Shown here in pieces: positions 2,380 to 43,403 of a stretch of 64,000 bases of DNA. Under the pieces are notes generated by a model, which was given only the letters and a program-made list of their open reading frames with translations, was not told the origin of the DNA and did not search any database. Made by a program: the position numbers and the translations under genes. Position 1 is the stretch's first letter, and every line of letters begins with the position of its first letter. Source of the DNA: Alphaproteobacteria bacterium (GTDB lineage Bacteria > Pseudomonadota > Alphaproteobacteria > 16-39-46 > JABJFC01); assembly GCA_018662925.1 (NCBI GenBank), contig JABJFC010000086.1:50-64049 (forward strand), in the 5' to 3' direction.

Positions 2380-2624
2380 TTAGGCACAGATAATTCCATA
2401 ATCTGCCTCATCCCAGATGGATTTGGCAACTGTGAAATTTGCTCTCTGAGATGGTGCTTTCTTTGAATATTTGCCTACCTCTGCTGAGAAAATGTTTCTT
2501 ACTTTTCCCATGAGAGATAAGGTTCTTTGTACTCCTTGTGGGGATTTGAATTTAATAAGACATTTCTCTTTTTTACGGGTAGGCTAATGGGCGTTTTCAA
2601 CACGATTATTTAACCCCTTATGAG
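2380..2624 (-). pseudogene. IS6-family transposase C-terminal fragment (internal stop, separated from N-terminal part by IS21)
   Basis: Translated minus strand matches the IS26 Tnp C-terminus pattern NN.IE..H.K.K....GFKS....TL.G.E.R; in-frame TAG. Confidence 0.5.
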
Positions 2625-2724
2625 TGTCAATGGTCCTGTAAAATCCCCAGGTAAAGTCCCTCAAAAATCCCCCCCCTAAAAGAGGAGGTAGGAGAGGATA
2701 CTGAGTTCCATGATGTAAAATATT

Positions 2725-4164
2725 ATGGAACAGACAATGATAGGATTAGCGATGCATACAACAATATTAACTTTATGGAAGCAAGGGAACAGTAAGAATG
2801 AGATTGCCCGAGTCACAGGCAAAGATCGTAAAACAGTTCGACGGATAATAAAGAAGTACGAAGGCACGAAAGAAGAAATACCAGCCATAGTGCAAAAAGC
2901 CAGTGCACTACAGGCATACCATACAGAGATCATTTCTTTTCTAGAGTCAGGATTGAGCGCTGTAAGAGTCCATGAGAAGCTGCAAGATCTGGGATGTCCC
3001 ATTGGGTATTCGGGGGTAAAAAAATATGTTGCCAAGATAAAGCTTCATTCGAACATTTGTGTCAGATTTCACAGTGAACCAGGAGAAGAAGCCCAGGTAG
3101 ATTTTGGATACGTAGGACTCATACCAGACCCCAAGAGGGGTGCTGGAAGGAAGAAAGCCTGGGTTTTTAATATGCGTTTGAGTTATTCCCGACTTGATTA
3201 TTATGAAGTTGTTTTAGATCAAAAGGTAGAGACATTCATTCGGTGTCACGAAAATGCTTTTCGGTCATTTGGAGGTATTCCCAAAGTGGTCAAAATAGAT
3301 AATCTTAAGGCAGCGATACTGGAGGCCCATTTTTATGAGCCCCTCTACCAAAGGCTCTACAAGCAGTTTGCAGATCATTGTGGTTTTTATCCCTTGCCCT
3401 GTCGAGTGAGACAACCGCAAGAAAAAGGAAAGGTTGAATCAGGGATAAAATACATAAAGAACAATTTTTTTGCTGGACGCTCGTTTAAGAGCTTTGAGGA
3501 TCTCTGTACTCAACTAAGGCAGTGGATGGATGACTATTGTCAGGAAAGGGTTCATGGAACGACAAAAGAAAAGCCTCGTGTGTTATTTGAGACAAAAGAA
3601 CAAGAGGTGTTGAAGAGGATTCCCCTCAATCCTTTTTACATGGGTACCAGGGGGCAAAGAAAAGTCCAGAAAGACTGTCATGTCGTTGTGGATCATAATT
3701 TTTACTCTGTGCCCTTTGAGCATGTGGGGAAGGTCGTTGAAGTACAGGAAGACTCGAGAGAAGTGAAGATTTTTTATGAAGACAAACAAGTGGCCCTCCA
3801 TATCCGACAAAATGGCAAGGGCAGGTTCTCGACCCAAACATCCCATTACCCTAGGTATAAATATTACACTCCTGACTCCCCCGAGTATCTTTCCCTTTAT
3901 CAGAACAAAATGACCTCCCTTGGAAAAGAGACAGAAGATCTGTTCTCTCTCATTGTTCAAGAACATCCCCGGGATTGGTACAGGATTGTAAAAGGCATTT
4001 TAGGTCTCCGAAAGCACTACAGCGATGAGGTCATCAATTTAGCCAGCAAAAGAGCTATGGCCTTTGGGATCACCCAGTACAAAAAGATAAAAAGGATCTG
4101 TGAGAGTGGATGTTATAGATTGCCCTTGTCTTCAAAAGGCCAGGAGGTCACATGGAAAGCATAA
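2725..4164 (+). CDS. istA: IS21-family transposase IstA
   Basis: 479 aa; N-terminal HTH then a DDE integrase core (architecture typical of IstA); overlaps istB by 13 nt as in IS21. Confidence 0.85.
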   Translation: MEQTMIGLAMHTTILTLWKQGNSKNEIARVTGKDRKTVRRIIKKYEGTKEEIPAIVQKASALQAYHTEIISFLESGLSAVRVHEKLQDLGCPIGYSGVKKYVAKIKLHSNICVRFHSEPGEEAQVDFGYVGLIPDPKRGAGRKKAWVFNMRLSYSRLDYYEVVLDQKVETFIRCHENAFRSFGGIPKVVKIDNLKAAILEAHFYEPLYQRLYKQFADHCGFYPLPCRVRQPQEKGKVESGIKYIKNNFFAGRSFKSFEDLCTQLRQWMDDYCQERVHGTTKEKPRVLFETKEQEVLKRIPLNPFYMGTRGQRKVQKDCHVVVDHNFYSVPFEHVGKVVEVQEDSREVKIFYEDKQVALHIRQNGKGRFSTQTSHYPRYKYYTPDSPEYLSLYQNKMTSLGKETEDLFSLIVQEHPRDWYRIVKGILGLRKHYSDEVINLASKRAMAFGITQYKKIKRICESGCYRLPLSSKGQEVTWKA

Positions 4165-4898
4165 AGCAAACCCTGAGAGAGTTTAAGCTGGCAGGAATGC
4201 TTATGTCTCTGGAGGAAAGGATTGTGTATGCTAATGAGAAGCAGCTTTCCTATCAACAGTTCTTGGGGCTTTTATGTGAAGATGAAGCTAACAACCGACG
4301 GGACAACAGCTATAAAAAGAGATACGTAAAAGCAAAACTTCCCAATCATAAAACAGTAGAAGACTTTGATTTTGCGTTCCAACCTTCTCTGCCTAAAAAG
4401 CAAATTAATGACGCTTTAACGTGCCAGTTTATAAAAGAGAAACGGAATTTAATTTTTGTTGGAAATCCTGGCACAGGAAAAACGCATTTATCAACAGCTA
4501 TTGCCTTAAGGGCCCTATCTAAAGAATTTAAGGTTCTGTTTACGACCGTTTCTGAAATGCTGTATCAATTGCATGTGGCAAAGGCCGACAACTCTTATTA
4601 CAAAAAGTTGGGAGAATACCTATCCCCTGATTTATTGGTTCTTGATGAGTTAGGGTTTAAGAAATTCCCTCAGTACTCTGTAGATGATTTTTTTGAGGTA
4701 ATATCCAAACGTTATGAAAAGGGCTCTTTAATTATTACAACTAATAAGCCTTTTGAGCAGTGGAGCAACATCTTTGGAGATAACACTTTAGCTGAGGCCA
4801 TCCTTGATAGGGTCGTCCATCATTCCATGGTTTTTACTATTAAAGGTCCTAGTTATCGGAGTAAATCTGTTAGAAAAAAGGAGGCGGAAATGACGTAA
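4152..4898 (+). CDS. istB: IS21-family helper ATPase IstB
   Basis: 248 aa; Walker A GNPGTGKTHL, Walker B LLVLDELG; IstB/DnaC-like. Confidence 0.85.
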   Translation: MESIKQTLREFKLAGMLMSLEERIVYANEKQLSYQQFLGLLCEDEANNRRDNSYKKRYVKAKLPNHKTVEDFDFAFQPSLPKKQINDALTCQFIKEKRNLIFVGNPGTGKTHLSTAIALRALSKEFKVLFTTVSEMLYQLHVAKADNSYYKKLGEYLSPDLLVLDELGFKKFPQYSVDDFFEVISKRYEKGSLIITTNKPFEQWSNIFGDNTLAEAILDRVVHHSMVFTIKGPSYRSKSVRKKEAEMT

Positions 4899-4973
4899 AA
4901 ATAATTCCCTAGGGGGGGGATTTTTGAGGGACTTTACCTGGGGATTTTACAGGGCCATTGACATGAGAACGAT

Positions 4974-5251
4974 GATCCGTATTCCGAGTCATATAACGTA
5001 TGGGCTTGGTATAATTTTTTAGCTTCACGTGGCTCTGGATAAGCTCCTAATAAACGGCTTAGAAAACGAATTTCGGCTTTCTTATTTCGGCGTTTTTGGA
5101 GAAATATATCCAGTTCATGCCCCTCAGAATCGACCGTTCTCCACAGAATGAAGTGAACATCATTGAGTTTGATGGTCACTTCATCAAGATGCCATCTGTT
5201 CTTGAATATCACGGTAGCTGTGATTGAATCGGTGGTAAAGCCATACGGCAT
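4974..5251 (-). pseudogene. IS6-family transposase N/central fragment (DDE region), truncated by IS21
   Basis: ORF 4934..5251; the residues matching IS26 Tnp (WHLDE...DSEGHELDIFLQKRRNKKAEIRFL) lie outside the IS21 inverted repeat; the last about 13 codons read into the IS21 repeat. Confidence 0.55.
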
Positions 5252-5464
5252 GACTGATAATGGAAATTGGAAAACGATGACATCGAGATGCTATTAATAA
5301 GGACATGGTGATTACCTTCATATTAAAATTCGAACATAACACAAATCCATATTAACTTGACGATGCCTATCCCCTCAAATTACTCTTCTAAGTCTTAAAA
5401 AACTTCTCTTCCATTCTGCCTTTGATTTATTCAGACCTCTCTATGAAATAAATGCCATTTACGA

Positions 5465-6421
5465 TTAAACTGCACGAACCATTTCAACTTTTTCTGGAAG
5501 ATCATATTTTGAATGATCCAGTTTTGCTACATTGATATTGTGATCTTTAAATTGGGAGATTATATTTGAAAACAGTTGAGTTTTTATCATATCTCTACCC
5601 TCTGTAATATTAGAAAGCCAAAATGTTAGGCTAAGAGCAACAGCATCATAGTGTACATTTTTGATATATGCTGAAGGAGAAGGTGTTTCTAACACAAGTT
5701 GATGCTCAAGAGCGCTGTTTTTCATTAATAAAAGAGCGTCTTCTGTATTAGATTCATAATCTATTTTAATCTCAATATTTAATGCTGCTTTTGTATCAGA
5801 GTAGGTCCAGTTGATAACACGGTTGGCTAAAAGCTCATCATTTGGAATAATGACCTCAATACCAGTCTCTGTTCGTAGCAAGGTATACCTTGCACCTGTA
5901 TATCGCACATATCCCATGGTACCATCTGAAAGCTCTATTAAATCATTACCTTCAATTGATTTTTCAGAAAGCAAAATTAGGCCGCTAATGAAATTCGAAG
6001 CTACTTTTTGAAGACCGAAACCAATTCCAATTCCAATGGCACCGCTAAAAATAGTGAACGTAGCAAGGTCCAAACTTAATATGTCTAAAGATACAATAAA
6101 AACTATGGTGTAAGTTAAGATTTGCACACCCTTTATAATGAGGGTCTTTTTTGAGTTGTTTATATAGTTCGTTGAATTTATTTTTGTTTCTACTTTTTCT
6201 AAAAATATGGACGCCAAAGATAAAAGCGTTATAAACGTTATTATGCCCTTTAATAAGAACCATATAGATATTTTCACACCAGCAACATTAAAAGTTAAAT
6301 TCTGAAGGTTATTAAAAAGATCTGAGTACTGAGAGCCAAAAAGTAAAAAAATTAAGGCTGCGGAAACAAGTGCAACTAAAAATAATTTTGAAACATAAGA
6401 GATTTGTTTTCTATTGAGCAT
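5465..6421 (-). CDS. mechanosensitive ion channel, MscS family
   Basis: 318 aa; N-terminal TM helices; pore-helix-like segment AIGIGIGFGLQKVASNFISGLILL then a beta-domain; MscS architecture. Confidence 0.7.
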   Translation of the reverse strand: MLNRKQISYVSKLFLVALVSAALIFLLFGSQYSDLFNNLQNLTFNVAGVKISIWFLLKGIITFITLLSLASIFLEKVETKINSTNYINNSKKTLIIKGVQILTYTIVFIVSLDILSLDLATFTIFSGAIGIGIGFGLQKVASNFISGLILLSEKSIEGNDLIELSDGTMGYVRYTGARYTLLRTETGIEVIIPNDELLANRVINWTYSDTKAALNIEIKIDYESNTEDALLLMKNSALEHQLVLETPSPSAYIKNVHYDAVALSLTFWLSNITEGRDMIKTQLFSNIISQFKDHNINVAKLDHSKYDLPEKVEMVRAV

Positions 6422-7254
6422 TAAAAAGGCTTTTCATTTATTAATCTTAATGATTTACCTTTACTCTACCTAAAGTGGTTTTGAAAGTTAAAAACTAGTT
6501 TTTTCATCTAAATATCTTGAAAAATAGGAGCGAGCAATTTACACTTAATGAATTAAGAAACAAAATTCTGTTTCAGAGACTGAACGCGAACTTTTAGAAA
6601 ACTTAGAAACGCATCGTATCTTCTCAGAAAACATTCAAGAATAGCTGATCGCTTCAGTCTCTTTGATGGTAGTTGGAAATTTATTATTCTTCTTTTTGCA
6701 TTTCTTCGTGGTTTGATGTTTTTAAATTTTTAGTATCTTACTCCAAGATTAAACCTCTTACTCTTATATTCTTTTGAAGCCTGCTTTATCTTGAGTGTCT
6801 CACCTTACAGGCCCAAATTATTATGGGTCAAAATCGATTCTCTGATCGAAGTTGAATTCGAGCAGAAAATTATTATTAAATAAACCTAAAATCCGAATCA
6901 CAGACCCGCCAGCTTAATAAATTTATAGCCTAGGAATTAGCACAACTTATAAAAATTCGAAATTAAATAAATACTATAAGAGATAATTACAATGTGCCAT
7001 ATCACAAGAGCGATCGAGCAGCTTTCTCTTTCATTATGCAACCAAGCATTTTGACGAAGCACTTTCTGAAAGCAATCTAGAAGAAAAACCTGGTTCAAGT
7101 GAACATAGAATTATACCTCTGAGGCTCTTGCGGATTATACCAATGAGTGAAAAAATGCACCTACCTGACACCATATTCACATTGATTCCAACCATCAAAT
7201 GTATATCAAATCTTTTGGTGAAGAGGGGAGCGTCATTAGAAAGAGTTTTTAAAG

Positions 7255-8508
7255 CTATTCATCCGACCGTGGATCAAGTTCTGACGCAATAGGTGTTGTG
7301 CCTGGAAGAACAACAAAATCTTGATGATCTTCTACAGCCGATGGTATACGGGTACTGACTCGGTATATTAAATAAGCTGCTAATCCTACCGAGATAAAGA
7401 TAAAATATATAAACAACCCTCCGCTTCCAAAAAAACTCATAAATACAGAAGCAAATATAGGGCCAAAAATTGCCCCTATCCCATAAGCCAACATGAGCCC
7501 TTGCGTGGCAGAAACAATGTCAGCATGTTCAAGAACATCACATGTATGGCTTATGCTGACAGGGTATAAAGCAAAAGAGGCGCCGCCAAAAATGAAGATC
7601 AGGATATTGATACTTTGTACAGATTGATTTGATATCGTTATAATGAAAAGCTCAATTGCTAATAATAAAAAGCAAAGAAAAATTAACATTTTTCTTCTAT
7701 CAACCAAATCAGACAAACGCCCAATTGGATACTGTAAAGCGGTGCCACCAGCAATAAGTAAAAACATAATTAAGGCTGTTACAGAGACATCATTAAGCAT
7801 TGTTTGAGTATATAAAGGAAGCAACCCTAACACTGATCCTAATAAAAGCCCCGAACATGTACATGATACAATGCCGGTGGGCGATAATTTATAGAGTTGA
7901 ATTAAAGTCAAAGCTGACGGTTCTTCAATGGTTGGGTTCCCAACTTTGGTAATTGCAAGGGGTATAACTGAAAGAATTACAAAAATTGTGGCAATCGAAA
8001 AAGGAGTTAAACTATCTATATTAAAAACATTTAACAAAAATTGCCCAGAAGCAGAGGCACCGTAAAGCGCAATCATATATAAAGCTAGAAATTGACCGCG
8101 CGTCTTTACTGTACTATGCCCCAACAGCCAGCTTTCTACTACAATATATAGACCAGCTAGGCAATACCCACTAATGGCACGTAATAATATCCAATACCAT
8201 AAAGAATAAAACAGCCCCTGAGAAAGCATAACAACAGCTGTAAGAGAAGCAAAAGCAGCATAAGCACGAATATGACCAACCCTTAAAATAAAATTTGCAT
8301 TTTTAAAGGCACCAAGTGCCATACCCGTATAGTATGCGGATGTGATGAGGCCAATATTCAAAGAAGAAACGCTTTCCATTTCTAAGCGAATAGGAATAAA
8401 CGTACCAAAAAGACCAACGCCATTCATTAAAAAAAACATACTTAAAAGAGGCGGAATAACGGAACAAAATATTTTAGGTGTCATGATTAACGTTCCACTT
8501 TTATACAA
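7255..8508 (-). CDS. MFS transporter
   Basis: 417 aa, about 12 predicted TM helices, MFS-like loop 2-3 motif. Confidence 0.6.
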   Translation of the reverse strand: MYKSGTLIMTPKIFCSVIPPLLSMFFLMNGVGLFGTFIPIRLEMESVSSLNIGLITSAYYTGMALGAFKNANFILRVGHIRAYAAFASLTAVVMLSQGLFYSLWYWILLRAISGYCLAGLYIVVESWLLGHSTVKTRGQFLALYMIALYGASASGQFLLNVFNIDSLTPFSIATIFVILSVIPLAITKVGNPTIEEPSALTLIQLYKLSPTGIVSCTCSGLLLGSVLGLLPLYTQTMLNDVSVTALIMFLLIAGGTALQYPIGRLSDLVDRRKMLIFLCFLLLAIELFIITISNQSVQSINILIFIFGGASFALYPVSISHTCDVLEHADIVSATQGLMLAYGIGAIFGPIFASVFMSFFGSGGLFIYFIFISVGLAAYLIYRVSTRIPSAVEDHQDFVVLPGTTPIASELDPRSDE

Positions 8509-8661
8509 TGTTGATATCCTCTTCTAATCCTTTCATCATAAGGAAGGAGCAGATAAGTTTCGTACCTTTATCATGGATCTAAAATAGTTAATACTTATTA
8601 AATTCTGAGGCCAGCTAATACACTTAAATTGTAAAATATCAGACACTTAATTTTTCAATGC

Positions 8662-9696
8662 ATGCTCCTATCATTTTTAGATGTGATCATTTGGAATATT
8701 CAACAGTTTGATGATGCCAATACTAATTTTCTTTCAAAGCCTACCTATGGTAAAAATATTCAGTTCTTAAAAAAATCTACACTCTTTCCTTTTACATCTA
8801 TAATTTTTAAGGCTACACTGTTCAAATGTGAGAAAGAATATAGCAGGGGGATCTTGATGCCAAATAATAAATTTCTAGAATTGCAAAACGTAATAATAAA
8901 AACTTACGGCGATTTTTATGATCAAGTTCTAGAATATATCCCACAAATTTTTCTTGCAATTTTCTTATTTTTGTTTGGTTTGATGTTCGCACATTTGTTG
9001 CGAATAATTACTAGAAAATTTTTAAAGGGTTTTGACTCTCTTATAAAGAGGTTAGCACTTTTTTTTGGCTTAAAGTCACTAAACTCCAAGCATTCATATG
9101 AAATCCTTATTAGTAAATTTGTATTCTGGTTGGTATTAATCTTCTTTATTGCTTCAAGTGCTAATGTGCTTGGCTGGAAAATTATTACAAAACTTGTTGA
9201 TAGTTTTATGATGGTGTTACCAAATTTAGTTACTTTTTTTCTAATTGTTATGGTTGGCTTTTTACTAAGTATGGGAGTAAGAACAACAGCTCAAAAACTA
9301 TTATATTCTGCTGGCTTTGCAAAAAGTGAAATTATTGCTCAATTAATCCAAGCGCTTGTCTTATTCACCGCAATAATAATAGGAGTCGAACAAATAGGGC
9401 TCCATGTTCAGTTTCTAACGATGATAATAATTGCAATAATTTCTATAGTTTTTGCGGGTGTAAGTCTTGCTTTTGGACTTGGGGCGAAAACCTTTGTCTC
9501 TAATATTATTTCCGCACAATATATAAATAAGCACTGTGATATAGATGATTTTGTGCAAGTTGGAGAAGTGGAAGGAAAGCTCATAGAAATTACTCAAACT
9601 TTCTTAATCTTAGAAACACAAAAAGGTAGAACAATGGTTCCAGCAAAATATTTTCATGAAAATGTCAGTACTTTTTATAGAAAAGATACAATTTAA
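8662..9696 (+). CDS. MscS-family mechanosensitive channel-like protein
   Basis: 344 aa; multiple TM helices; segment AGVSLAFGLGAKTFVSNIISAQYI resembles MscS TM3; C-terminal beta domain. Confidence 0.5.
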   Translation: MLLSFLDVIIWNIQQFDDANTNFLSKPTYGKNIQFLKKSTLFPFTSIIFKATLFKCEKEYSRGILMPNNKFLELQNVIIKTYGDFYDQVLEYIPQIFLAIFLFLFGLMFAHLLRIITRKFLKGFDSLIKRLALFFGLKSLNSKHSYEILISKFVFWLVLIFFIASSANVLGWKIITKLVDSFMMVLPNLVTFFLIVMVGFLLSMGVRTTAQKLLYSAGFAKSEIIAQLIQALVLFTAIIIGVEQIGLHVQFLTMIIIAIISIVFAGVSLAFGLGAKTFVSNIISAQYINKHCDIDDFVQVGEVEGKLIEITQTFLILETQKGRTMVPAKYFHENVSTFYRKDTI

Positions 9697-9720
9697 AATG
9701 TTTTCTAAAGTGCTTTAAAT

Positions 9721-10569
9721 ATGCCTAACAATAAGAAAGATTTTGCTCTTACTTTTACACAATCACACCCTGACATAGTGGCAAAGGAGTTAGAAAAAAT
9801 GCCTCCATATAAGGTGGCTTCTTTTTTAAAAAGTATTCCTATTTCCGTAGCCCCTCAAGTTATAGAAAAAATGCTTTCAAAGAAAGTTGCCGAAATATGC
9901 AATATATTAGAACCTGAAAAAACAACTAAATTTCTAACTCTTATGGAGATTCACTCAGTTATATCAGTATTAAGACATCTAGATCCTGAAAGGCGTCGTT
10001 CCATTCTTGCACACTTACCCTCTAAGCTCAGATTATGCTGTAAAATCCTTTTGCGATATTCAGATAATAGTGTTGGTGCTTGGGCTTATCCACAACCAAA
10101 TATCATTCCATTTGATTACACTGTCGCTGAAGCACTTCAGTTAATTAAAAACACACAAAATAGAATACCTTCCAATATTATTTTTATCGTTAATCGCTAT
10201 AAAGCCTTTATAGGATTCGTGGATACATATAAATTACTTCAATCACCACCGGATGCTTTAATTGAAGCTCTCACGAAAGAAAGTGAATATTGTTTGTACG
10301 GAACTATGAAGCTTGATTCTATCCTTAATCATCCAGGATGGGAGTATTTCGATGTTCTTCCCGTATTAACCAGTGATCAAAAAATTATTGGGGAATTACC
10401 ATACCGAACCCTCAGAAAAGCTCTAGAAACTTCTAATGAACAAAGAGAAGCTATATTTACCGAGGACATGATTGCTCCAGTTTGGAAGATATATAGTTCA
10501 ATATCGTTTTCTTTTATAAATTTACTGAGTTCATTCCTTGAGCAAAAAAATGAATTTTCCAAGAAATAG
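9721..10569 (+). CDS. stand-alone MgtE N-domain plus CBS-pair protein (cytosolic sensor part of MgtE, no TM domain)
   Basis: 282 aa; helical MgtE_N-like N-terminus followed by a CBS-like pair; no hydrophobic segments; directly upstream of full-length mgtE. Confidence 0.45.
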   Translation: MPNNKKDFALTFTQSHPDIVAKELEKMPPYKVASFLKSIPISVAPQVIEKMLSKKVAEICNILEPEKTTKFLTLMEIHSVISVLRHLDPERRRSILAHLPSKLRLCCKILLRYSDNSVGAWAYPQPNIIPFDYTVAEALQLIKNTQNRIPSNIIFIVNRYKAFIGFVDTYKLLQSPPDALIEALTKESEYCLYGTMKLDSILNHPGWEYFDVLPVLTSDQKIIGELPYRTLRKALETSNEQREAIFTEDMIAPVWKIYSSISFSFINLLSSFLEQKNEFSKK

Positions 10570-10578
10570 GTGTTTTAG

Positions 10579-11892
10579 ATGCCACAACCAAACCTAAAAG
10601 TAACTATAGAAAAGCTCAATAAGATTTTTATAACCAGCTATCCTATTGAAGCAGCTAGAAAATTTGAAACCATGACTCCCTCAGCTGCTGCAAACATCCT
10701 TAGTAAGCATCCTATCTGTGATGTTAGTTGCGTTTTTTCTTTTATTACTCCTGGTATAGGAAAATTAATTCTGCTGCTTTTGCCAAAAACTATGGCTTGC
10801 GAGCTATTAATGCACTTAGAACCAAATTATGTAGCAATACTTCTAAGGCTTTTGAATAAAAAACAGCAAGATGCCTATCTTAGAAACTTAGATCAAAGCA
10901 TTTCACGGGAAATAAAGGAAATTTTAGGATACCCACAAAACACGGCAGGAGCAATGATGGAAGCGAGCTTCGTCGGATTTAATAAGAATGCCTCTGTGAA
11001 AGATATTTTGTTATTTTTCCAACAACAAAAATTAGACAAAGTTGATCATATTCTTCTTCTTAATGATCAGCTTGAATTAGTGGGAAAAATTAATGTCGGT
11101 CGTCTAGTATTAGCAGACAAGAATCTAAAATTATTTTCACTTTCTGAGCCAGTTAGCGTTTCTTTTTCTGCACTTGATTCTAGAGAAAAAGTCATAAAAG
11201 TATTTGAAAAAACAAAATTAGATTTTGTACCAGTTTTAGATGCAAATAATAGGGTTATAGGCGTTATACAATCATACATGCTCATAGAAGCTATAAAAGA
11301 AGATATTGTTTCTGATATTCAAACCATGGTAGGTGCAAATAAAGAGGAAAGCGCTCTATCTAGTAGCTTCTTCTCTGTTAGGAAAAGATTACCATGGATG
11401 GAGATTAATTTACTTACCGCCTTTCTTGCAGCAGCAGTAGTGGGTATTTTTGAAGAAACGATCGCAAAATATACGGCCTTAGCTGTTCTTTTACCTGTTG
11501 TAGCAGGGCAGTCTGGTAATGCGGGTGCTCAAGCATTAGCTATTACTATGCGTAGTCTTATTTTAAGAGAAATCACTACAAACCAGTGGCTCAAAATAGC
11601 ACTAAAAGAATTTAATACTGGCCTTATGAATGGCATATTAATAGCCTTAACTTGCGCAGTTGCAGTTTTTATTTGGAGTAAAAATATTGGCCTTTCTTTA
11701 GTAATCACTCTTTCCATGATAGTTTCCATGATTATTGCAAGCGTTGCAGGAGCGCTTGTTCCTATAGTTTTAAAAAAACTAAGACAAGATCCAGCTCAAT
11801 CATCTTCTATCATACTAACTACTATTACAGATGTAGCAGGGTTTATGTCCTTCCTTGGAATCGCAACAAGCCTGCATAGGTTTCTTTTATAA
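10579..11892 (+). CDS. mgtE: magnesium transporter MgtE
   Basis: 437 aa; N-domain, CBS pair, and C-terminal 5-TM MgtE domain (PVVAGQSGNAGAQALAITMRSL). Confidence 0.8.
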   Translation: MPQPNLKVTIEKLNKIFITSYPIEAARKFETMTPSAAANILSKHPICDVSCVFSFITPGIGKLILLLLPKTMACELLMHLEPNYVAILLRLLNKKQQDAYLRNLDQSISREIKEILGYPQNTAGAMMEASFVGFNKNASVKDILLFFQQQKLDKVDHILLLNDQLELVGKINVGRLVLADKNLKLFSLSEPVSVSFSALDSREKVIKVFEKTKLDFVPVLDANNRVIGVIQSYMLIEAIKEDIVSDIQTMVGANKEESALSSSFFSVRKRLPWMEINLLTAFLAAAVVGIFEETIAKYTALAVLLPVVAGQSGNAGAQALAITMRSLILREITTNQWLKIALKEFNTGLMNGILIALTCAVAVFIWSKNIGLSLVITLSMIVSMIIASVAGALVPIVLKKLRQDPAQSSSIILTTITDVAGFMSFLGIATSLHRFLL

Positions 11893-16639: not shown

Positions 16640-17089
16640 TTAGTCCGTTGTGTCATTCACAGTTATGATTTTGATGGTCACCTCATCTTGACCATAGGCC
16701 AAAGCTGACATCCATACCTCCCCATCACCAATCATGACGCCCTGATAATTGCAAAAGAGATCCTTAAATTTCTGCTTTTGAACAACCTCTTTCACTTCAG
16801 CAGTAAAGATTTTTTCATAGTTTTGTATAAAATCTTCTTTGGTTTTAATTCCAATTGGCTGCCTAAGTGGAAAACTTATCATGTTTGCCAAAGTTTCTAT
16901 ATCATCGTTTGAAAGTGCTTTTTGCAAGTCAGCCAAAAACGCTTTAAGGGGCTCCATTGATTTAATCCCTGCCACTCTTAAATCACAATGAGACCCAATT
17001 TTCGTAGATATTGGTGATATGGGGGGCTCTTCCTCTTTACAACTCGTAAGTGAAAGAAAACCTAAAAGAGCAATTTTATAGGGACGCAT
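16640..17089 (-). CDS. hypothetical lipoprotein
   Basis: Signal peptide with lipobox LTSC. Confidence 0.45.
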   Translation of the reverse strand: MRPYKIALLGFLSLTSCKEEEPPISPISTKIGSHCDLRVAGIKSMEPLKAFLADLQKALSNDDIETLANMISFPLRQPIGIKTKEDFIQNYEKIFTAEVKEVVQKQKFKDLFCNYQGVMIGDGEVWMSALAYGQDEVTIKIITVNDTTD

Positions 17090-21617: not shown

Positions 21618-24479
21618 CTAATACCCAATTACCGTAACAGGTACACCAATCGCAGTACTTGAGAAATTGCCATTGCCGTGATCGAAGTAGGGCTGGAGTT
21701 CAGAGGGTGCATCGTAAAATTCGTCCTTTCCCCTCTTTTCGTAGCCCGTAAAACCATTGTCGTTTGCAGAAGGCATAATACCTTTACCCATGGCAAGGGT
21801 TTTTAATACATATTGCATCCTATTCGCATGAAAAGCATCACTTTCAGCTTCTAATTTCTTCTGCATATATTCAGACAGATCTACCACCACAGAATCCCCC
21901 TTAGGTTGAACTGGCACTTGAGAAGCGGACGGAAAAAATACACTTGGCGGACGCAAATCTGAAACAGCCCCATCAACGTTTTCTTCTTCAGTGTCTGAAC
22001 CATCGGAGGCGTCATGAAAAACGAGATCCTTATCCTGCTCTTCTTCTTCATCTGCATTTTTCCCTTCAAGTTGATCAAGTCCAACTTCTTCCTCCTCTTC
22101 AAGGAGTGCATATTGAACACTAGTGCTGTCCAAGTCCTCAACTCTACCAACGTTCAATCCACCGCCCGAAAACCCTTCGCCACCTCCAGAATAGTCCTCC
22201 ATCTCCCTGTCATCTGCTGCGCGTTTCTCCTTCGTTTTTTTCTCCTTCTTAACTAGAACTCTGATTTCTTTAATGAACTTATGCACCTCTTCTACCTCTG
22301 TCATAGTGCCCCTTTTGACAGTGAATTGGAAAATATCTTCCACAAACTGCATGAGATCATGTTTATGCAATCCAACGAAATCAGGATACTTGAAAAAAGT
22401 TTTCCTGACCTGACGGATGAACCAACTTGACCAAGTCTCTATGGGGTTTACAGAATACTCTTCCTCAACGCCAAATCCACATTTCTTTAGCACAGGCTTT
22501 ATACCCTGTAGATTACTAAAACTGCGCCAGCCCCAATGAGACAGTAATTCTTCATCAGGTGATGATTGTAAATCATCCTCATTGATGATACGGCCACTAA
22601 CTTCCCAAACTGTTCTTGAAAGCTTCACGAAACCTTGCCTGATACCCGTTAATAAACGGCGAGTCCTTAGGGCGATTATTGAGCCAGATCTCTTTAGTTG
22701 AGCAGCTGCAAATGGTGTTAAGTTGAGAGACAGTCCCGCTGTCGTAATTAAAACGTAACCATTATAAAGAATGCTCAGGGGATCTCGTGTAATTAAAGAA
22801 TAAACACTGGGCACGCCCATAGCTGTCAGGTACACAACGGCAAAGGGAACTGTTTGCAGAGTTCCCCACGCCAAACTATCCAACCAATGTCCTACCCCCA
22901 AAATCCGGCTCACACGTCCCGTTGAAGGATTGTCTCGGGTTCCCTCTCTAATATAATGCATCCAGGCATACAAGCTATTAAACCAGCCAAAGGCTGCGAC
23001 AGGTGCACTTAACAAACCCAATGTCGTTAGACGAAAAGGATCCTCTATAATCGTACTAAACGAGTAGCCAAATGGATCATACAAAAGTCTGTGAAAGACG
23101 TACATTGACAGAACAGTTAGACCAGGCAAACCAACCGTAGCCGCCAACAGTGAAAATAAGCGTTTATTTATTTCAGGATCCTTTACCTGTCGAAAGATTC
23201 TTTGCCATCTGTTGAGTGTCTCTTTTCGAGATTCTTCTGTATCATCATGGAGTAGACTTTGCTCCAAAGAGCTTTCTTCTACTAAAAGTTCTCCTTCAAG
23301 AACTGCTATAAAATTTTTGATATCAATAAAATTTTCCACACCTGCATCTTTGCTACTACCTGAAGTAGATCGTGTAATAAGATTCCAAATTTGATGAAAC
23401 CTCTGGGGATCCGTCTTTATAGTAAGCCATAGTCTCAGAATTTCCTGAGGGTCCTCCATATCACGGATAAGACGCTTATAATCTCGCTTCTTCTGCTGTA
23501 ACGCAAGCATAGTATTTGCAAAGGATCCTTCTTTCTCTTCTCTCAATATCGTCTTTCTGAAAAACTCCCTGCTCTTTGCAAAAGTCCAGCGTAAATCACT
23601 TTGCAGAGCACTTACGCGCTCTGTAAGAGTTGCAAATTCAAATATAAATCCACCGAACATCTCTGTTGCTACAAGCCACAAGGGAGCATTTTCAGAAATA
23701 CTCAGATAAAACAAAGGAAGCGCCAGTGAAAGGACTGCAGCAGGAACGTCTAGTAATCTCCTACCAATAGTATGAATATAATCATTCAGTCGCTCGGCAC
23801 GAAACATATGGTTTGGAGCACGGGACAACATGCTTTCAAAAAATCTAGCTGCATCAACAGAGGTTACAGAATTTCGCAGATAAAAAGTAAGAGAAATGGC
23901 ATCCGTAAGAACATCCGTAGGATTTTTTGAAACGGTATCCTCTTGATCTAAATTAAGGATTTCAAGCCATCTATATAAAAAATATCCAAATAAAGCACCT
24001 CTTACAACATGCCCACCAGCAGAAACAATCACTCCAATCGCTCCCCAAGGCTCCCTCAAATGGGGCAGTATTCTGCGCGGAAAGTAGTGAAAAATCTGAT
24101 CTCGATCATCTGGTCGAACTTGCTGCATATAGTTCATAATACGGTCAAATTCTTCTCTAAGCGTCAAGGTATCCAGAATCTTTAGTCTTGAATATTTGTC
24201 ATCACCCAAACAGTTTACAGTGGGTTGCTGAAGCACCATGTACTCTGCTAGTGAATTATCCATATTCCTTATGACGGATGGAATACGATTCCTACTGTAC
24301 TCTTCCGAAGTCTCTCCATCTTTGCCTTTTGCAAAAGAACAATCGCAATTTAGTGAAGTACAAAACACAAAAACTAAAAGTAGGAAGGCATATTTTATAG
24401 CACACATCAAACAGAGGCTTTCGTAGTAATACTGAAATATAAAAATCTTTAGAGATGATAGTAAAAAACACCAATACAT
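21618..24479 (-). CDS. large hypothetical polytopic membrane protein with Glu/Asp-rich disordered C-terminal region
   Basis: 953-aa ORF; N-terminal signal-like segment (a more likely start is MCAIKYAFLLLVFVF...); at least 6 hydrophobic helices; C-terminal low-complexity SGGGEGFSGGG and EEEEE(V)...EEEEQD tracts. Confidence 0.5.
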   Translation of the reverse strand: MYWCFLLSSLKIFIFQYYYESLCLMCAIKYAFLLLVFVFCTSLNCDCSFAKGKDGETSEEYSRNRIPSVIRNMDNSLAEYMVLQQPTVNCLGDDKYSRLKILDTLTLREEFDRIMNYMQQVRPDDRDQIFHYFPRRILPHLREPWGAIGVIVSAGGHVVRGALFGYFLYRWLEILNLDQEDTVSKNPTDVLTDAISLTFYLRNSVTSVDAARFFESMLSRAPNHMFRAERLNDYIHTIGRRLLDVPAAVLSLALPLFYLSISENAPLWLVATEMFGGFIFEFATLTERVSALQSDLRWTFAKSREFFRKTILREEKEGSFANTMLALQQKKRDYKRLIRDMEDPQEILRLWLTIKTDPQRFHQIWNLITRSTSGSSKDAGVENFIDIKNFIAVLEGELLVEESSLEQSLLHDDTEESRKETLNRWQRIFRQVKDPEINKRLFSLLAATVGLPGLTVLSMYVFHRLLYDPFGYSFSTIIEDPFRLTTLGLLSAPVAAFGWFNSLYAWMHYIREGTRDNPSTGRVSRILGVGHWLDSLAWGTLQTVPFAVVYLTAMGVPSVYSLITRDPLSILYNGYVLITTAGLSLNLTPFAAAQLKRSGSIIALRTRRLLTGIRQGFVKLSRTVWEVSGRIINEDDLQSSPDEELLSHWGWRSFSNLQGIKPVLKKCGFGVEEEYSVNPIETWSSWFIRQVRKTFFKYPDFVGLHKHDLMQFVEDIFQFTVKRGTMTEVEEVHKFIKEIRVLVKKEKKTKEKRAADDREMEDYSGGGEGFSGGGLNVGRVEDLDSTSVQYALLEEEEEVGLDQLEGKNADEEEEQDKDLVFHDASDGSDTEEENVDGAVSDLRPPSVFFPSASQVPVQPKGDSVVVDLSEYMQKKLEAESDAFHANRMQYVLKTLAMGKGIMPSANDNGFTGYEKRGKDEFYDAPSELQPYFDHGNGNFSSTAIGVPVTVIGY

Positions 24480-24511
24480 ACAAGTATATTGTATGCATAC
24501 TTAAAATAAAC

Positions 24512-24557
24512 CGCCAAAAAATCCGGGAAGCACAACTATCTTTATTCTCCTTCCCGG
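24512..24557 (-). terminator. Rho-independent terminator downstream of the lipoprotein gene
   Basis: Minus-strand hairpin ccgggaag-N19-cttcccgg followed by a U-tract (ATTTTTTGG). Confidence 0.5.
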
Positions 24558-24621
24558 ACTAACGTGCTTTTCTATTTATTGATCATCGCCACCTGGGATT
24601 TATTGAACCTAATGCAGAAAC

Positions 24622-25164
24622 CTATTTTCCAGACTTTAAGTGGCTCTTGAGCCCATCTACTAAAAACACAACACGATCTCGACATTTTTGCTTTGCAAAA
24701 TCCTGTAGGGAAACACGATTTCCCTCTATAAGTGCATTATCATCAGCCAATAATGTCGCGACAAAGGTAATGCTATCGCTATTCACGTCTCCTACCTCTT
24801 TGATGGAAATCAAGAGGATTGCATCCTCGCCTTTTTTATTTACAAAAGACAGAAAATTATGGGGTTTTTCGGAAATATAACCGTCTTTATTTTTTGGCAA
24901 ACTGTTTAAAGCCTGGCCCAGTTCTTCCAAAGATACAAGCTGAGCGCCTCCCTTATGACCAATCGTCGGAAATGCATTAATAGATTTTCCATCCTTGATC
25001 CCTTTTAAGGTTAGTTTCATTGTGCCATTGGTATCAATATCCGAAATTTCAAAATTATCGGCACGAATATGATAGTCGTATTCTGAAACTTTTTGCTCTT
25101 CTGAACAGCCCACTAAACCGAAGGCAAGAAAAACTACACTATACAAAAAACCTGACTTTTTCAT
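24622..25164 (-). CDS. hypothetical lipoprotein
   Basis: 180 aa; signal peptide plus lipobox LVGCSEE. Confidence 0.45.
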   Translation of the reverse strand: MKKSGFLYSVVFLAFGLVGCSEEQKVSEYDYHIRADNFEISDIDTNGTMKLTLKGIKDGKSINAFPTIGHKGGAQLVSLEELGQALNSLPKNKDGYISEKPHNFLSFVNKKGEDAILLISIKEVGDVNSDSITFVATLLADDNALIEGNRVSLQDFAKQKCRDRVVFLVDGLKSHLKSGK

Positions 25165-42221: not shown

Positions 42222-43403
42222 CTAGTGATGACTAGGAACATGCCCCATATACTTGTGAAGAATATCTAACCACTCTTCAGAATAGGACATGTTGAAAACA
42301 GCCTTGTTCAGCGCTAAACGAAGAAGACTATTTTTGGATGTAATCAGGACATAATACTGAGAGGTAAAAGAGTTAGGAAGAACCTTGAGGGTTTTGGCAT
42401 AGTTTTTCTTCACTTGGTATCTCAAAACTGGCTCCGAAAAAACAATGGCTTTTAACTTTCCAGATTCTAAGCTATCGAGCGCAGCTGGTACGGTCTTAAA
42501 AGTTTGATAATTTAGGTGCCTCTTGTCTAAATATTTTGCGCCAATACCTCCCGCTATCGTCCCAACTTCCACTCTTGATAAGTCCGATGGGCCGTAAACT
42601 TCTGGACGAAGAGCATGAGTAGTAAGAGCCCCGGCAACAGTCCCGACAAGGCTGGAAAGGATAACAACCGTACTAATCATCCATGCAACTGCTATTAATC
42701 GTCCATAAATGGTTTTGGGAGCTTCGTCTCCAATAGTAACCATTGTCACAAATGTCCACCAAAGCCCTTCACCAATACCTCTAAGGCTGCCTCCTTGAAA
42801 TGACGGATTAGCTTTTCGTTCTACTGCCCATAGCAACAAACTAAAACAAAGACATAACACAAACAACAATCCCAAAGGCTCCATGAACTTTTTAGATACA
42901 AGATGATCCTTAAGAACTGAATAAAATTTCTCATCCACCTTAGAAACGGCGATGCTTAACCCGGTCACAAAATATGGAATGGTATAATCGGAGATCAAAA
43001 GTTCCTGACGAAGGGGCGTATCACCCGCTATTATATCAAATTTTCCTGAATCTACCTCCTTCAACCCTTCCGATTCGGTCGTTTTTTCAAGAATATATTC
43101 ATATCCAAGATCTTTGCTGATGTGATCTATCAGCTCAATAGACAACCCTTCCCAATCTCCTTGCTCCGACATCATTGCAAAGGGAGCTCCTTCTACAACA
43201 CCCACTTTAAGAACTGTGGATTTCGACAATGAATTAGGCACCGCACCAGAAGACGCTGAACCAACCGTTGTTTGATCGTGCTGAATGACAGTGGAAGTTG
43301 GCTCTGTCTGGTCAGCAAAAGATGATTGGAAGCTCGCTACAAAGAATATAATTGCGAATAGTAAAAAATAAAAAGAGCGATGATTAGCCACAATTATATT
43401 CAT
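42222..43403 (-). CDS. ionotropic-glutamate-receptor-like ligand-gated channel (solute-binding lobe 1, TM-pore loop-TM, lobe 2)
   Basis: 393 aa; signal peptide; SBP-like halves interrupted by two TM helices flanking a pore-loop-like WWTFVTMVTIGDEAP; GluR0-like topology. Confidence 0.5.
   Translation of the reverse strand: MNIIVANHRSFYFLLFAIIFFVASFQSSFADQTEPTSTVIQHDQTTVGSASSGAVPNSLSKSTVLKVGVVEGAPFAMMSEQGDWEGLSIELIDHISKDLGYEYILEKTTESEGLKEVDSGKFDIIAGDTPLRQELLISDYTIPYFVTGLSIAVSKVDEKFYSVLKDHLVSKKFMEPLGLLFVLCLCFSLLLWAVERKANPSFQGGSLRGIGEGLWWTFVTMVTIGDEAPKTIYGRLIAVAWMISTVVILSSLVGTVAGALTTHALRPEVYGPSDLSRVEVGTIAGGIGAKYLDKRHLNYQTFKTVPAALDSLESGKLKAIVFSEPVLRYQVKKNYAKTLKVLPNSFTSQYYVLITSKNSLLRLALNKAVFNMSYSEEWLDILHKYMGHVPSHH

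What the first reader, a model, noticed from the sequence alone, without database searches (positions are those of the whole stretch)
21618..24479. 953-aa polytopic membrane protein with Glu-rich disordered C-terminus: candidate secreted or host-interaction effector
This is the largest orphan in the window. It has a signal-like N-terminus and at least 6 hydrophobic helices. Its C-terminal roughly 250 residues contain Gly-rich and long acidic tracts (EEEEEVGLDQLEGKNADEEEEQD, SDGSDTEEENVD). Acidic E-block-like C-terminal regions are a known feature of type IV secretion (Dot/Icm) substrates. Polytopic proteins with disordered tails resemble inclusion or vacuole-membrane effectors of intracellular bacteria. 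It lies between uvrA and a lipoprotein/lolA, not in an operon with recognisable partners.
Basis: inference. Interest (0 to 1): 0.6.

Follow-up and report, generated by a model that had tools for sequence, protein, structure and literature searches.

The report
Orphan membrane protein with FFAT-like tail
This is a real gene found in only one uncultured marine alphaproteobacterium, encoding a many-pass membrane protein with a long acidic floppy tail; it most likely sits in the bacterium's own inner membrane beside a partner lipoprotein, but the tail carries a near-perfect copy of a eukaryotic ER-docking (FFAT) motif, so a host-targeting role stays possible.

Summary
The 953-aa ORF (21618-24479, minus strand) is real and matches the description: an N-terminal signal-like segment, 7 clear plus 2 weak hydrophobic segments, and a Gly-rich, acidic tail (net charge -25 over residues 751-850). 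Pfam, NCBIfam, PDB, PADLOC, PHROGs, plasmid and phage searches found nothing significant. An exhaustive HMMER scan of 1.84 billion proteins found one relative, a 358-aa paralogue in the same four MAGs. Both copies follow a lipoprotein (55% identical between copies), so this is a duplicated two-gene cassette.

The acidic runs lie 120-155 residues from the C-terminus, and the last 30 residues hold one E. No secretion-system gene lies in the window. UvrA resembles that of free-living Rhodospirillales-type bacteria.

Two new observations keep the effector idea open. The tail has an FFAT core (DEFYDAPS, 7/8 identical to human ORP1's DEFYDALS) and a second FFAT-like core inside the acidic tract. The internal membrane segments are also less hydrophobic than those of known inner-membrane proteins in the window.

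Best reading (about 0.5): a lineage-specific inner-membrane protein working with its lipoprotein. Rival (about 0.28): a translocated effector that mimics FFAT. The genome could not be surveyed for secretion systems.

The parts
21618..24479 (-). Full ORF, 953 aa from the first ATG. The likely CDS starts at M25 (nt 24407, 929 aa). PGAP called M73 (881 aa).
24330..24407 (-). Residues 25-50, MCAIKYAFLLLVFVFCTSLNCDCSFA. This is a Sec-type signal peptide or signal anchor, with a possible SFA|K cleavage site. An equivalent segment is present in the paralogue.
   Evidence: the cleavage site is inferred by eye
23547..24233 (-). Residues 83-311, the only module conserved with paralogue P0006. It comprises a predicted periplasmic juxtamembrane stretch (TLRE..RPD..H..P.R..P.L..G) plus the first three internal hydrophobic segments.
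22698..24050 (-). Residues 144-594, the membrane region. Hydrophobic segments start at about 144 (weak), 242, 265, 441, 484, 543 and 574. They form three closely spaced pairs: a 2-residue loop at 263-264, a 22-residue loop at 462-483, and a 10-residue loop at 564-573.
22230..22697 (-). Residues 595-750, a basic, helix-predicted region following the last TM segment (net charge +8). LKRSGSIIALRTRRL follows the last TM directly, which places this side in the cytoplasm by the positive-inside rule.
21930..22229 (-). Residues 751-850, a Gly-rich and acidic tract predicted as coil (net charge -25). It holds the EEEEE, DEEEE and EEE runs.
22002..22022 (-). Residues 820-826, VFHDASD. This is a relaxed FFAT-like core inside the acidic tract. 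ADEEEEQDKDL lies upstream, and GSDTEEE with S/T-x-x-E (CK2-type) sites lies downstream.
21702..21722 (-). Residues 920-926, EFYDAPS. This is a strict FFAT core (consensus E-F/Y-F/Y-D-A-x-E). With the preceding D it reads DEFYDAPS, 7/8 identical to the ORP1 FFAT DEFYDALS. The upstream six residues, EKRGKD, are not acidic.
21627..21650 (-). Residues 944-951, IGVPVTVI, at the extreme C-terminus. The paralogue's C-terminus has IKVPISVI. This may be a shared terminal motif.
   Evidence: 15 of 20,000 random tails score as well; noticed post hoc
24622..25164 (-). Upstream partner: a 180-aa lipoprotein with lipobox LVGC. It is 55% identical to the lipoprotein that precedes the paralogue.
24515..24558 (-). 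Intrinsic-terminator-like hairpin (9-bp G+C-rich stem) plus a T run, between the lipoprotein gene and the target.
   Evidence: (-27.2 kcal/mol, z -5.5)
24488..24517 (-). Sigma-70-like promoter match, TTGGCG-18-TACAAT, just upstream of the ORF. It is a consensus match only and no more frequent than in shuffles.

Best explanation
The gene encodes a lineage-specific protein of the bacterium's own inner membrane, and it works with the lipoprotein encoded just upstream.

Proposed mechanism. Translation starts at M25. The N-terminal signal sends the protein to Sec/YidC. A domain of about 95 residues stays in the periplasm. Seven or eight helices cross the membrane. The last ~360 residues stay in the cytoplasm: a basic helical region, an acidic floppy linker of about 100 residues, and a small C-terminal domain. 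The periplasmic domain plus the first three helices form the conserved core shared with a short paralogue, and this is the likely contact for the periplasmic lipoprotein. The long copy adds a cytoplasmic tail that would recruit or hold partners, acting as a membrane-anchored scaffold or signalling adaptor of the cell envelope.

Shown: the gene is real; the hydrophobic segments exist; a paralogue exists; the lipoprotein pairing is conserved; the family is restricted to one lineage.

Inferred: the topology, the contact with the lipoprotein, and the scaffold role.
For: 1. Restricted family with one paralogue. An exhaustive phmmer scan found only a self fragment and P0006, a 358-aa protein (E 6e-14; BLASTP 7e-23 over residues 83-311).

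2. The two copies sit in the same genome. P0006 and the target share locus-tag prefixes or adjacent accession ranges in four MAGs: HOK20_02900 and HOK20_04900, MBT5390171 and MBT5390556, MBT4879624 and MBT4879453, MBT5654409 and MBT5654338.

3. Conserved lipoprotein pairing. Both copies directly follow a lipoprotein, and the two lipoproteins are 55% identical. The genes further upstream differ: lolA-ftsK for the target, pnp-NMO for the paralogue.

4. Sec-type entry. Both copies open with a signal-peptide-like segment.

5. Membrane segments and orientation. There are 7 'certain' TM segments. Flanking K+R counts are 19 on the side holding the C-terminal tail and 9 on the other side.

6. Genomic setting. 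The neighbourhood is housekeeping and envelope genes: uvrA, lolA, ftsK, an RND pump, tolB-pal. GC3 is 0.356, inside the window's range (median 0.386). There is no secretion-system gene in 64 kb.

7. Taxonomy. UvrA is 73-75% identical to UvrA of many free-living Rhodospirillales-type genera and shows no Rickettsiales or Holosporales signal.
Against: - A strong terminator-like hairpin separates the two genes in this cassette, so they may not be co-transcribed.
- The internal TM segments are less hydrophobic than those of 55 TM segments of known inner-membrane proteins in the same window (GES median 1.53 vs 1.91, p 0.012; Kyte-Doolittle mean 1.38 vs 1.94, p 0.003).
- The tail carries FFAT-type motifs, which have no known use inside a bacterium.
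Confidence: 0.5

Rival explanations
1. The protein is a translocated transmembrane effector that mimics FFAT motifs. It would first be inserted in the bacterial inner membrane with its tail in the cytoplasm. A type IV (or other) secretion system would then extract and deliver it into a host-derived membrane of a protist. There the paired hydrophobic segments would anchor it, and the acidic tail would bind the ER protein VAP through its two FFAT-like cores, tethering the ER to the bacterial compartment as Chlamydia IncV does.
For: - Strict FFAT core. EFYDAPS lies at residues 920-926. With the preceding D it is 7/8 identical to the VAP-binding ORP1 peptide core DEFYDALS.
- Second FFAT-like core. 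VFHDASD at 820-826 has F at position 2 and sits inside an acidic tract, followed by S/T-x-x-E sites.
- Rarity. The strict core is expected 0.002 times per 953 aa. It appears in 0.14% of shuffles of the tail. There are none in the other 16,604 residues of the window.
- Both cores lie in a region predicted as coil.
- The TM segments are less hydrophobic than those of resident inner-membrane proteins, as reported for a subset of TMD-effectors (PMC11602083).
- A two-step route through an inner-membrane intermediate is documented for Legionella TMD-effectors (PMC11602083).
- The residue at position -3 is hydrophobic (Ile), a known Dot/Icm substrate feature (PMC3052360).
- The distribution is orphan, and the two paralogues are far more divergent (24-27% identity) than their lipoprotein partners (55%).
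- Bacterial FFAT mimics are known: IncV, XopM and HopN1.
Against: - The motif was noticed after the fact. About 1.4 strict cores are expected by chance per 600,000-residue proteome.
- The six residues before the strict core are EKRGKD, which is not an acidic tract.
- There are no orthologues, so motif conservation cannot be tested.
- There is no E-block in the last 30 residues.
- No secretion-system or eukaryote-like gene lies in the window.
- The N-terminus looks like a Sec signal, and the protein has a periplasmic lipoprotein partner. Neither is typical of T3SS or T4SS effectors.
- The short paralogue has no such tail.
- UvrA is not fast-evolving, and its nearest named neighbours are free-living genera.
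Confidence: 0.28
2. Some other role uses the same architecture. One possibility is reversed topology, with the tail in the periplasm and the lipoprotein binding it. Another is a membrane-shaping hairpin protein, or a competition or immunity module in which the lipoprotein protects against the membrane protein.
For: - The orientation call rests on a modest charge bias.
- The three tight hydrophobic pairs, one with only a 2-residue loop, could be re-entrant hairpins rather than full crossings.
- A shared C-terminal I-x-V-P-x-S/T-V-I motif in both paralogues hints at a terminal recognition element.
- The cassette was duplicated as a unit.
Against: - The strongly basic stretch directly after the last hydrophobic segment favours a cytoplasmic tail.
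- There is no toxin, immunity or defence family match (PADLOC, PHROGs and Pfam).
- Nothing positive supports any one of these variants.
Confidence: 0.15
3. The ORF is not a functional gene: a chance ORF, a pseudogene or an assembly artefact.
For: - Three pipelines disagree on the start codon.
- No close orthologues exist.
Against: - The frame is open for 2.86 kb in AT-rich DNA.
- The nucleotide sequence is identical on 7 contigs from independent metagenomes.
- A paralogue shows significant similarity.
Confidence: 0.02

Closest known systems
Chlamydia trachomatis IncV (inclusion-membrane tether that binds VAP through two FFAT motifs)
   Same: - Membrane anchoring by closely paired hydrophobic segments.
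- A long unstructured tail with two FFAT-type cores, one close to consensus and one degenerate.
- CK2-type S/T-x-x-D/E sites near the cores (PMC9286742, PMC6083021).
   Different: - No sequence homology.
- 953 aa with three hydrophobic pairs, against one bilobed domain in the 363-residue IncV (PMC9286742).
- A Sec-like signal at the N-terminus instead of a type III signal.
- Genetically encoded acidic tracts, which in IncV blocked type III export (PMC9286742).
- Alphaproteobacterial host organism with no known secretion system.
- The motifs lie about 100 residues apart rather than about 24.
Legionella Dot/Icm transmembrane effectors (SidF, LegC2/LegC3, Ceg4)
   Same: - Helical TM segments plus a cytoplasm-facing C-terminal tail.
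- A hydrophobic residue at position -3.
- The reduced TM hydrophobicity seen here matches a subset of these effectors.
- A route through an inner-membrane intermediate is documented (PMC11602083, PMC3052360).
   Different: - There is no E-block in the last 30 residues.
- No Dot/Icm genes were seen.
- No homology to these effectors.
- The organism is not a known intracellular bacterium.
Human ORP1L and OSBP FFAT motifs
   Same: The target's DEFYDAPS compares with ORP1's DEFYDALS (PMC7705450). OSBP's core EFFDAPE also has Pro at position 6 (my own knowledge).
   Different: The eukaryotic motifs follow a clearly acidic stretch (SILSED in ORP1). The target's strict core follows EKRGKD. Only the second, degenerate core sits in an acidic tract.
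Pairs of an envelope lipoprotein with a polytopic inner-membrane protein, such as RcsF-IgaA (analogy from my own knowledge; not tested here)
   Same: A small lipoprotein is encoded or acts with a multi-pass inner-membrane protein that has periplasmic and cytoplasmic parts.
   Different: - No homology to RcsF or IgaA.
- The resemblance is one of architecture only.

Membership tests
Dot/Icm (type IVB) substrates | E-block (run of Glu) within the C-terminal 20-30 residues (PMC11602083) | tested here: not met
   The last 30 residues, APSELQPYFDHGNGNFSSTAIGVPVTVIGY, hold 1 E and 1 D. The acidic runs end 120, 139 and 155 residues from the C-terminus.
Dot/Icm (type IVB) substrates | Hydrophobic residue at position -3 or -4 (PMC3052360) | tested here: met
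   The protein ends ...V-I-G-Y, so -3 is Ile and -4 is Val. This feature is weakly specific.
Dot/Icm (type IVB) substrates | A Dot/Icm or other type IV secretion system in the same genome | not testable with these tools
   None is present among the 42 ORFs of the window. The other contigs of the MAGs could not be fetched. The genome-contig scans found neither cassette.
Dot/Icm (type IVB) substrates | Secretion-system-dependent translocation into host cells | not testable with these tools
   This needs an experiment.
Chlamydial Inc proteins | Bilobed hydrophobic domain (two TM segments separated by a short loop) | tested here: met
   There are three such pairs: 242-262/265-285, 441-461/484-504 and 543-563/574-594. 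This is a resemblance of form only.
Chlamydial Inc proteins | Chlamydial origin with a type III secretion signal, and homology to an Inc family | tested here: not met
   The source records label the MAGs Alphaproteobacteria, and UvrA supports that. The N-terminus looks like a Sec signal. There is no Pfam Inc match.
FFAT-motif VAP-binding proteins (functional class, includes the bacterial mimics IncV, XopM and HopN1) | Seven-residue core E-(F/Y)-(F/Y)-D-A-x-E with F or Y at position 2 | tested here: met
   EFYDAPS at 920-926 matches positions 1-5 exactly and has S at position 7, as ORP1 does. VFHDASD at 820-826 has F2, D4, A5 and D7.
FFAT-motif VAP-binding proteins (functional class, includes the bacterial mimics IncV, XopM and HopN1) | Acidic (or phosphorylatable) tract directly upstream of the core | tested here: inconclusive
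   The strict core is preceded by EKRGKD (2 acidic, 3 basic). The relaxed core is preceded by ADEEEEQDKDL. The published position-weight matrix was not available, so no FFAT score is given.
FFAT-motif VAP-binding proteins (functional class, includes the bacterial mimics IncV, XopM and HopN1) | Motif in an unstructured region, exposed to eukaryotic cytosol, and conserved across species (PMC8306308) | not testable with these tools
   The region is modelled as coil, but the whole model has low confidence. Exposure to a host would need translocation. No orthologues exist against which to test conservation.
FFAT-motif VAP-binding proteins (functional class, includes the bacterial mimics IncV, XopM and HopN1) | Direct binding to the VAP MSP domain | not testable with these tools
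   This needs an experiment.
Bacterial lipoproteins (the upstream partner, 24622-25164) | Signal peptide ending in a lipobox [LVI][ASTVI][GAS]C | tested here: met
   The partner has ...FGLVGC|SEE, and the paralogous partner has ...AFLVGC|GEE.
HIV/SIV Nef (PF00469) | Significant match to the Nef core, with the PxxPxR SH3-binding motif kept | tested here: not met
   Pfam gives E 0.053 and 13.6 bits against a cut-off of 27. PDB gives E 0.045-0.06. The aligned stretch reads SQVPVQ where Nef has PQVPLR.

The most novel reading that the evidence does not exclude
A marine alphaproteobacterium known only from oxygen-minimum-zone-type metagenomes lives in or on a protist. It delivers this polytopic protein into a host-derived membrane. 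There the protein's two FFAT-like cores (EFYDAPS and VFHDASD in an acidic tract) bind host VAP and tether the ER to the bacterial compartment. This would be an independently evolved, much larger analogue of Chlamydia IncV, and to my knowledge the first from an environmental alphaproteobacterium.
Probability: 0.22. Interest if true: 0.8.

Novelty: new variant of a known kind. Interest (0 to 1): 0.42.

Why it matters
Under the ordinary reading, this is one more lineage-specific envelope protein. Its main value is as a worked example of an orphan that has a hidden paralogue and a conserved lipoprotein partner.

Under the FFAT reading, VAP hijacking by motif mimicry would extend beyond its current range. 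So far it is known from Chlamydia, two plant pathogens and some viruses. This would add an uncultured marine alphaproteobacterium and mark that organism as host-associated. It would also give a simple test: peptide binding to a VAP MSP domain, for a lineage that cannot be grown.

It would also be a case where a genetically encoded acidic tract coexists with export. IncV avoids this because acidic tracts block type III secretion.

Tried and rejected
**Sequence and family searches that found nothing useful**
- Pfam, NCBIfam, PADLOC and PHROGs scans of the target, the paralogue and the lipoprotein gave only sub-threshold noise: LMP2, Nef, PD-Lambda-5_A, and signal-peptide-only hits to BamJ and RDF.
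- PDB sequence searches with the single protein and with the two-sequence profile found nothing significant.
- tblastn against plasmids and phages found no match.
- Two genome-contig scans (target profile, lipoprotein profile) found nothing. The lineage, or at least these genes, is therefore absent from the GTDB representative set.
- The metagenome scan with the lipoprotein profile only re-found cassette 2.

**Structure**
- AF2 of the full protein from a single sequence was unusable (pLDDT 36).
- The afdb50 library was unavailable.

**Other tests**
- A positional-orthologue search around uvrA in the two nearest UvrA relatives found no conserved synteny.
- There are no internal repeats (self-BLASTP).
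- Selection analysis was impossible: the gene is identical at nucleotide level on 7 contigs, with one R339C variant.
- Compositional foreignness is rejected, because GC3 is within the window's range.
- The Nef similarity is rejected as chance-level at database scale.
- The published FFAT scoring matrix could not be obtained, so I used explicit patterns and shuffles instead.
- A literature search for the MAG accession found nothing.
Full report
**1. The observation**

The minus strand of 21618-24479 carries a 953-aa ORF. The quoted sequences are there. Residues 751-850 hold 32 acidic and 7 basic residues, with a GGGEGFSGGG stretch. The acidic runs are EEEEE (794-798), DEEEE (810-814) and EEE (831-833).

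It gives 7 'certain' hydrophobic segments, starting at residues 25, 242, 265, 441, 484, 543 and 574, and 2 'putative' ones at 144 and 933. The same code finds 12, 12, 4 and 5 segments in the window's MFS, AcrB, FtsK and MgtE proteins, so it behaves sensibly.

The neighbours are as described: uvrA is convergent downstream, and a 180-aa lipoprotein, lolA and ftsK lie upstream.

The start codon is uncertain. Public gene calls use M1, M25 or M73, and none has a convincing ribosome-binding site. I favour M25. The paralogue described below also opens with a signal-peptide-like segment that aligns with residues 25-50.

**2. How isolated the protein is**

Pfam, NCBIfam, PADLOC, PHROGs and the PDB sequence library give nothing significant. 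The word-indexed search of 5.8 billion clusters found only the protein itself. An exhaustive phmmer pass over 1.84 billion representatives found two hits: a 52-aa fragment of the protein itself, and P0006, a 358-aa protein (E 6e-14). P0006 aligns with residues 83-311 of the target (BLASTP 7e-23, 24% identity). tblastn against plasmids and phages found nothing.

The gene is identical at nucleotide level on seven contigs from different metagenomes, always in the same gene order. One variant, R339C, exists. NCBI labels the source MAGs only as 'Alphaproteobacteria bacterium'.

**3. A duplicated two-gene cassette**

P0006 lies directly after a 184-aa lipoprotein that is 55% identical to the lipoprotein upstream of the target. 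Locus tags and accession ranges show that both cassettes occur in the same four MAGs. Examples are HOK20_02900 with HOK20_04900, and MBT5390171 with MBT5390556. They are therefore paralogues, not orthologues.

Genes further upstream differ: lolA-ftsK for the target, and rpsO-pnp-NMO for the paralogue. So the lipoprotein and the membrane protein were duplicated, or kept together, as a unit.

The membrane proteins have diverged much more than the lipoproteins. The short copy lacks everything between the third internal hydrophobic segment and the extreme C-terminus.

The two C-termini share I-x-V-P-[VI]-[ST]-V-I. Only 15 of 20,000 random tail pairs score as well, but I noticed this after the fact.

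In the target's cassette, a strong hairpin followed by a T run sits between the two genes (-27.2 kcal/mol, z -5.5). A promoter-like site follows it. The target may therefore have its own transcript.

**4. Anatomy and likely topology**

Proposed layout:
- signal or anchor, residues 25-50;
- soluble stretch 51-143, containing the best-conserved motif shared with the paralogue (TLRE..RPD..H..P.R..P.L..G);
- a weak hydrophobic segment at 144-170;
- three tight hydrophobic pairs: 242-262/265-285, 441-461/484-504 and 543-563/574-594;
- a charged helical insert, 286-440;
- a basic helical region, 595-750;
- an acidic coil, 751-850;
- a small predicted hairpin plus two helices at about 857-897;
- a Gly/Asn-rich end.

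Counting K+R in the 15 residues flanking each segment gives 19 on the side that holds the C-terminal tail and 9 on the other side. By the positive-inside rule the tail is cytoplasmic and residues 51-143 are periplasmic. This is an inference from crude scales, not a trained predictor.

**5.

E-block motifs are scored within the last 20-30 residues of Dot/Icm substrates (PMC11602083). Here the last 30 residues contain one Glu and one Asp, and the acidic runs end 120-155 residues upstream. That feature is not met. A hydrophobic residue at -3 (PMC3052360) is present, but this is weakly specific.

None of the 42 ORFs of the window belongs to a secretion system. I could not reach the other contigs of the MAGs. 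Both genome-contig scans came back empty.

UvrA is 73-75% identical to UvrA of many Rhodospirillales-type genera (Zavarzinia, Telmatospirillum, Oceanibaculum, Ca. Terasakiella). No Rickettsiales or Holosporales appear among the named proteins in the 120 listed hits, most of which are unnamed. This does not suggest a derived obligate endosymbiont, but it does not settle lifestyle either.

GC3 of the target (0.356) is inside the window's range.

**6. Two new points in favour of a host-directed role**

First, reading the tail shows DEFYDAPS at 919-926. The FFAT consensus is E-(F/Y)-(F/Y)-D-A-x-E, with F or Y obligatory at position 2 (PMC11631713, PMC6083021). The ORP1 peptide used as the standard VAP ligand is SILSEDEFYDALSDSES (PMC7705450). 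So 7 of 8 residues match.

A second, looser core, VFHDASD, lies at 820-826. It is preceded by ADEEEEQDKDL and followed by GSDTEEE.

Chance estimates for the strict five-residue core:
- expected 0.002 times in a protein of this size;
- appears in 0.14% of shuffles of the tail;
- absent from the other 16,604 residues of the window;
- strict core plus a second relaxed core appears in 0.0015% of shuffles.

Against this:
- about 1.4 strict cores are expected per proteome by chance;
- I defined the patterns after seeing them;
- the strict core's upstream residues (EKRGKD) are not acidic;
- there are no orthologues to test conservation.

Second, the six internal 'certain' TM segments are less hydrophobic than 55 TM segments of known inner-membrane proteins in the same window (GES median 1.53 vs 1.91, p 0.012; Kyte-Doolittle mean 1.38 vs 1.94, p 0.003). 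Reduced hydrophobicity is reported for a subset of secreted TMD-effectors. Legionella can also extract more hydrophobic effectors from an inner-membrane intermediate (PMC11602083).

Bacterial FFAT mimics exist. IncV has two motifs, and XopM has two motifs. HopN1, which binds plant VAP12, appeared in the same search, but I did not read that paper.

**7. Weighing the readings**

For an ordinary envelope protein:
- base rates;
- the Sec-type signal conserved in both paralogues;
- the conserved periplasmic lipoprotein partner;
- housekeeping surroundings for both cassettes;
- absence of any secretion gene in 64 kb;
- a normal-looking UvrA.

For a translocated FFAT-mimicking effector:
- the motif pair;
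- the softer TM segments;
- the single-lineage distribution;
- the fast divergence of the membrane protein relative to its partner.

Its specific evidence fails, but the idea survives on different evidence.

**8. Comparison with known families, and novelty**

The protein belongs to no described family. It resembles IncV and Legionella TMD-effectors in form only. The defining features that could be tested are either not met (E-block, Inc homology and taxon) or met only at motif level (FFAT core).

It is best filed as an unclassified, lineage-restricted membrane-protein family of familiar architecture, with one unusual and testable feature. Interest is moderate. It would be high only if VAP binding and host association are shown.

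Noticed in passing
L008 4236-4309; L009 and L010 3' ends; 78-kb JGI contig of sample 3300072015: Every contig that carries the paralogous cassette ends about 65-75 nt after the stop codon of P0006, at the same sequence (...AAAAAGTCCATGATTGATCTTCGAAAT). A convergent ORF fragment (...MDFFEITWPKISHDMVDRINDDFQLLKSAL*) overlaps the end of P0006. This suggests a repeat, perhaps a mobile element, that breaks all assemblies there. The sequence is not present in the window.
   Followed up: partly
window 445-11892, next to IS21 istA/istB at 2725-4898: This is a block of genes with much lower GC3 (0.25-0.28, against a window median of 0.39). It holds an orphan with a weak restriction-enzyme hit, two MscS-type channels, an MFS transporter, and an MgtE_N protein plus MgtE. 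It flanks an IS21 element and looks like an acquired island.
   Followed up: partly
window 21801-21944 (-), residues 846-893: There is a weak similarity to the HIV-1 Nef core: FPsasQVPvqP......VDLSeymqkK...e...H..R.Q..L, 17/46 identical. Pfam PF00469 gives E 0.053, PDB Nef chains give E 0.045-0.06, and the pairwise E is 4e-7. At database scale this is chance-level, and the PxxPxR motif is not kept.
   Followed up: yes
window 21627-21650 (-) and the C-terminus of P0006: The two paralogues share I-x-V-P-[VI]-[ST]-V-I at their extreme C-termini, although the short copy lacks the roughly 600 residues in between. 15 of 20,000 random tail pairs score as well. Its meaning is unknown.
   Followed up: partly
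window 24407, 24479 and 24263 (alternative starts): Three annotation pipelines give three different starts for this gene (953, 929 and 881 aa). The NCBI call (M73) removes the signal-like segment altogether.
   Followed up: partly
window 48976-50970 (+): This is a second orphan: 664 aa, 12 strongly hydrophobic segments, no Pfam, PADLOC or PHROGs match. It lies directly after a GT2 glycosyltransferase and UDP-GlcNAc 2-epimerase and overlaps the latter's stop codon. It is probably a polytopic glycan polymerase or glycosyltransferase of a surface-polysaccharide locus.
   Followed up: no
window 16640-17089 (-): This is another small orphan, 149 aa, with a lipoprotein-type signal (LTSC). It has no family match.
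   Followed up: no
window 42222-43403 (-) and 55152-60050 (+): The first encodes a GluR0-type ligand-gated ion channel (SBP_bac_3 plus Lig_chan). The second encodes a 1632-aa NAD-specific glutamate dehydrogenase.
   Followed up: no
P0003 (MBT5540915.1), residue 339 of the target: The only sequence variant seen in any public copy of the protein is R339C. Otherwise the gene is identical at nucleotide level on seven contigs from different metagenomes, which indicates a near-clonal population.
   Followed up: yes
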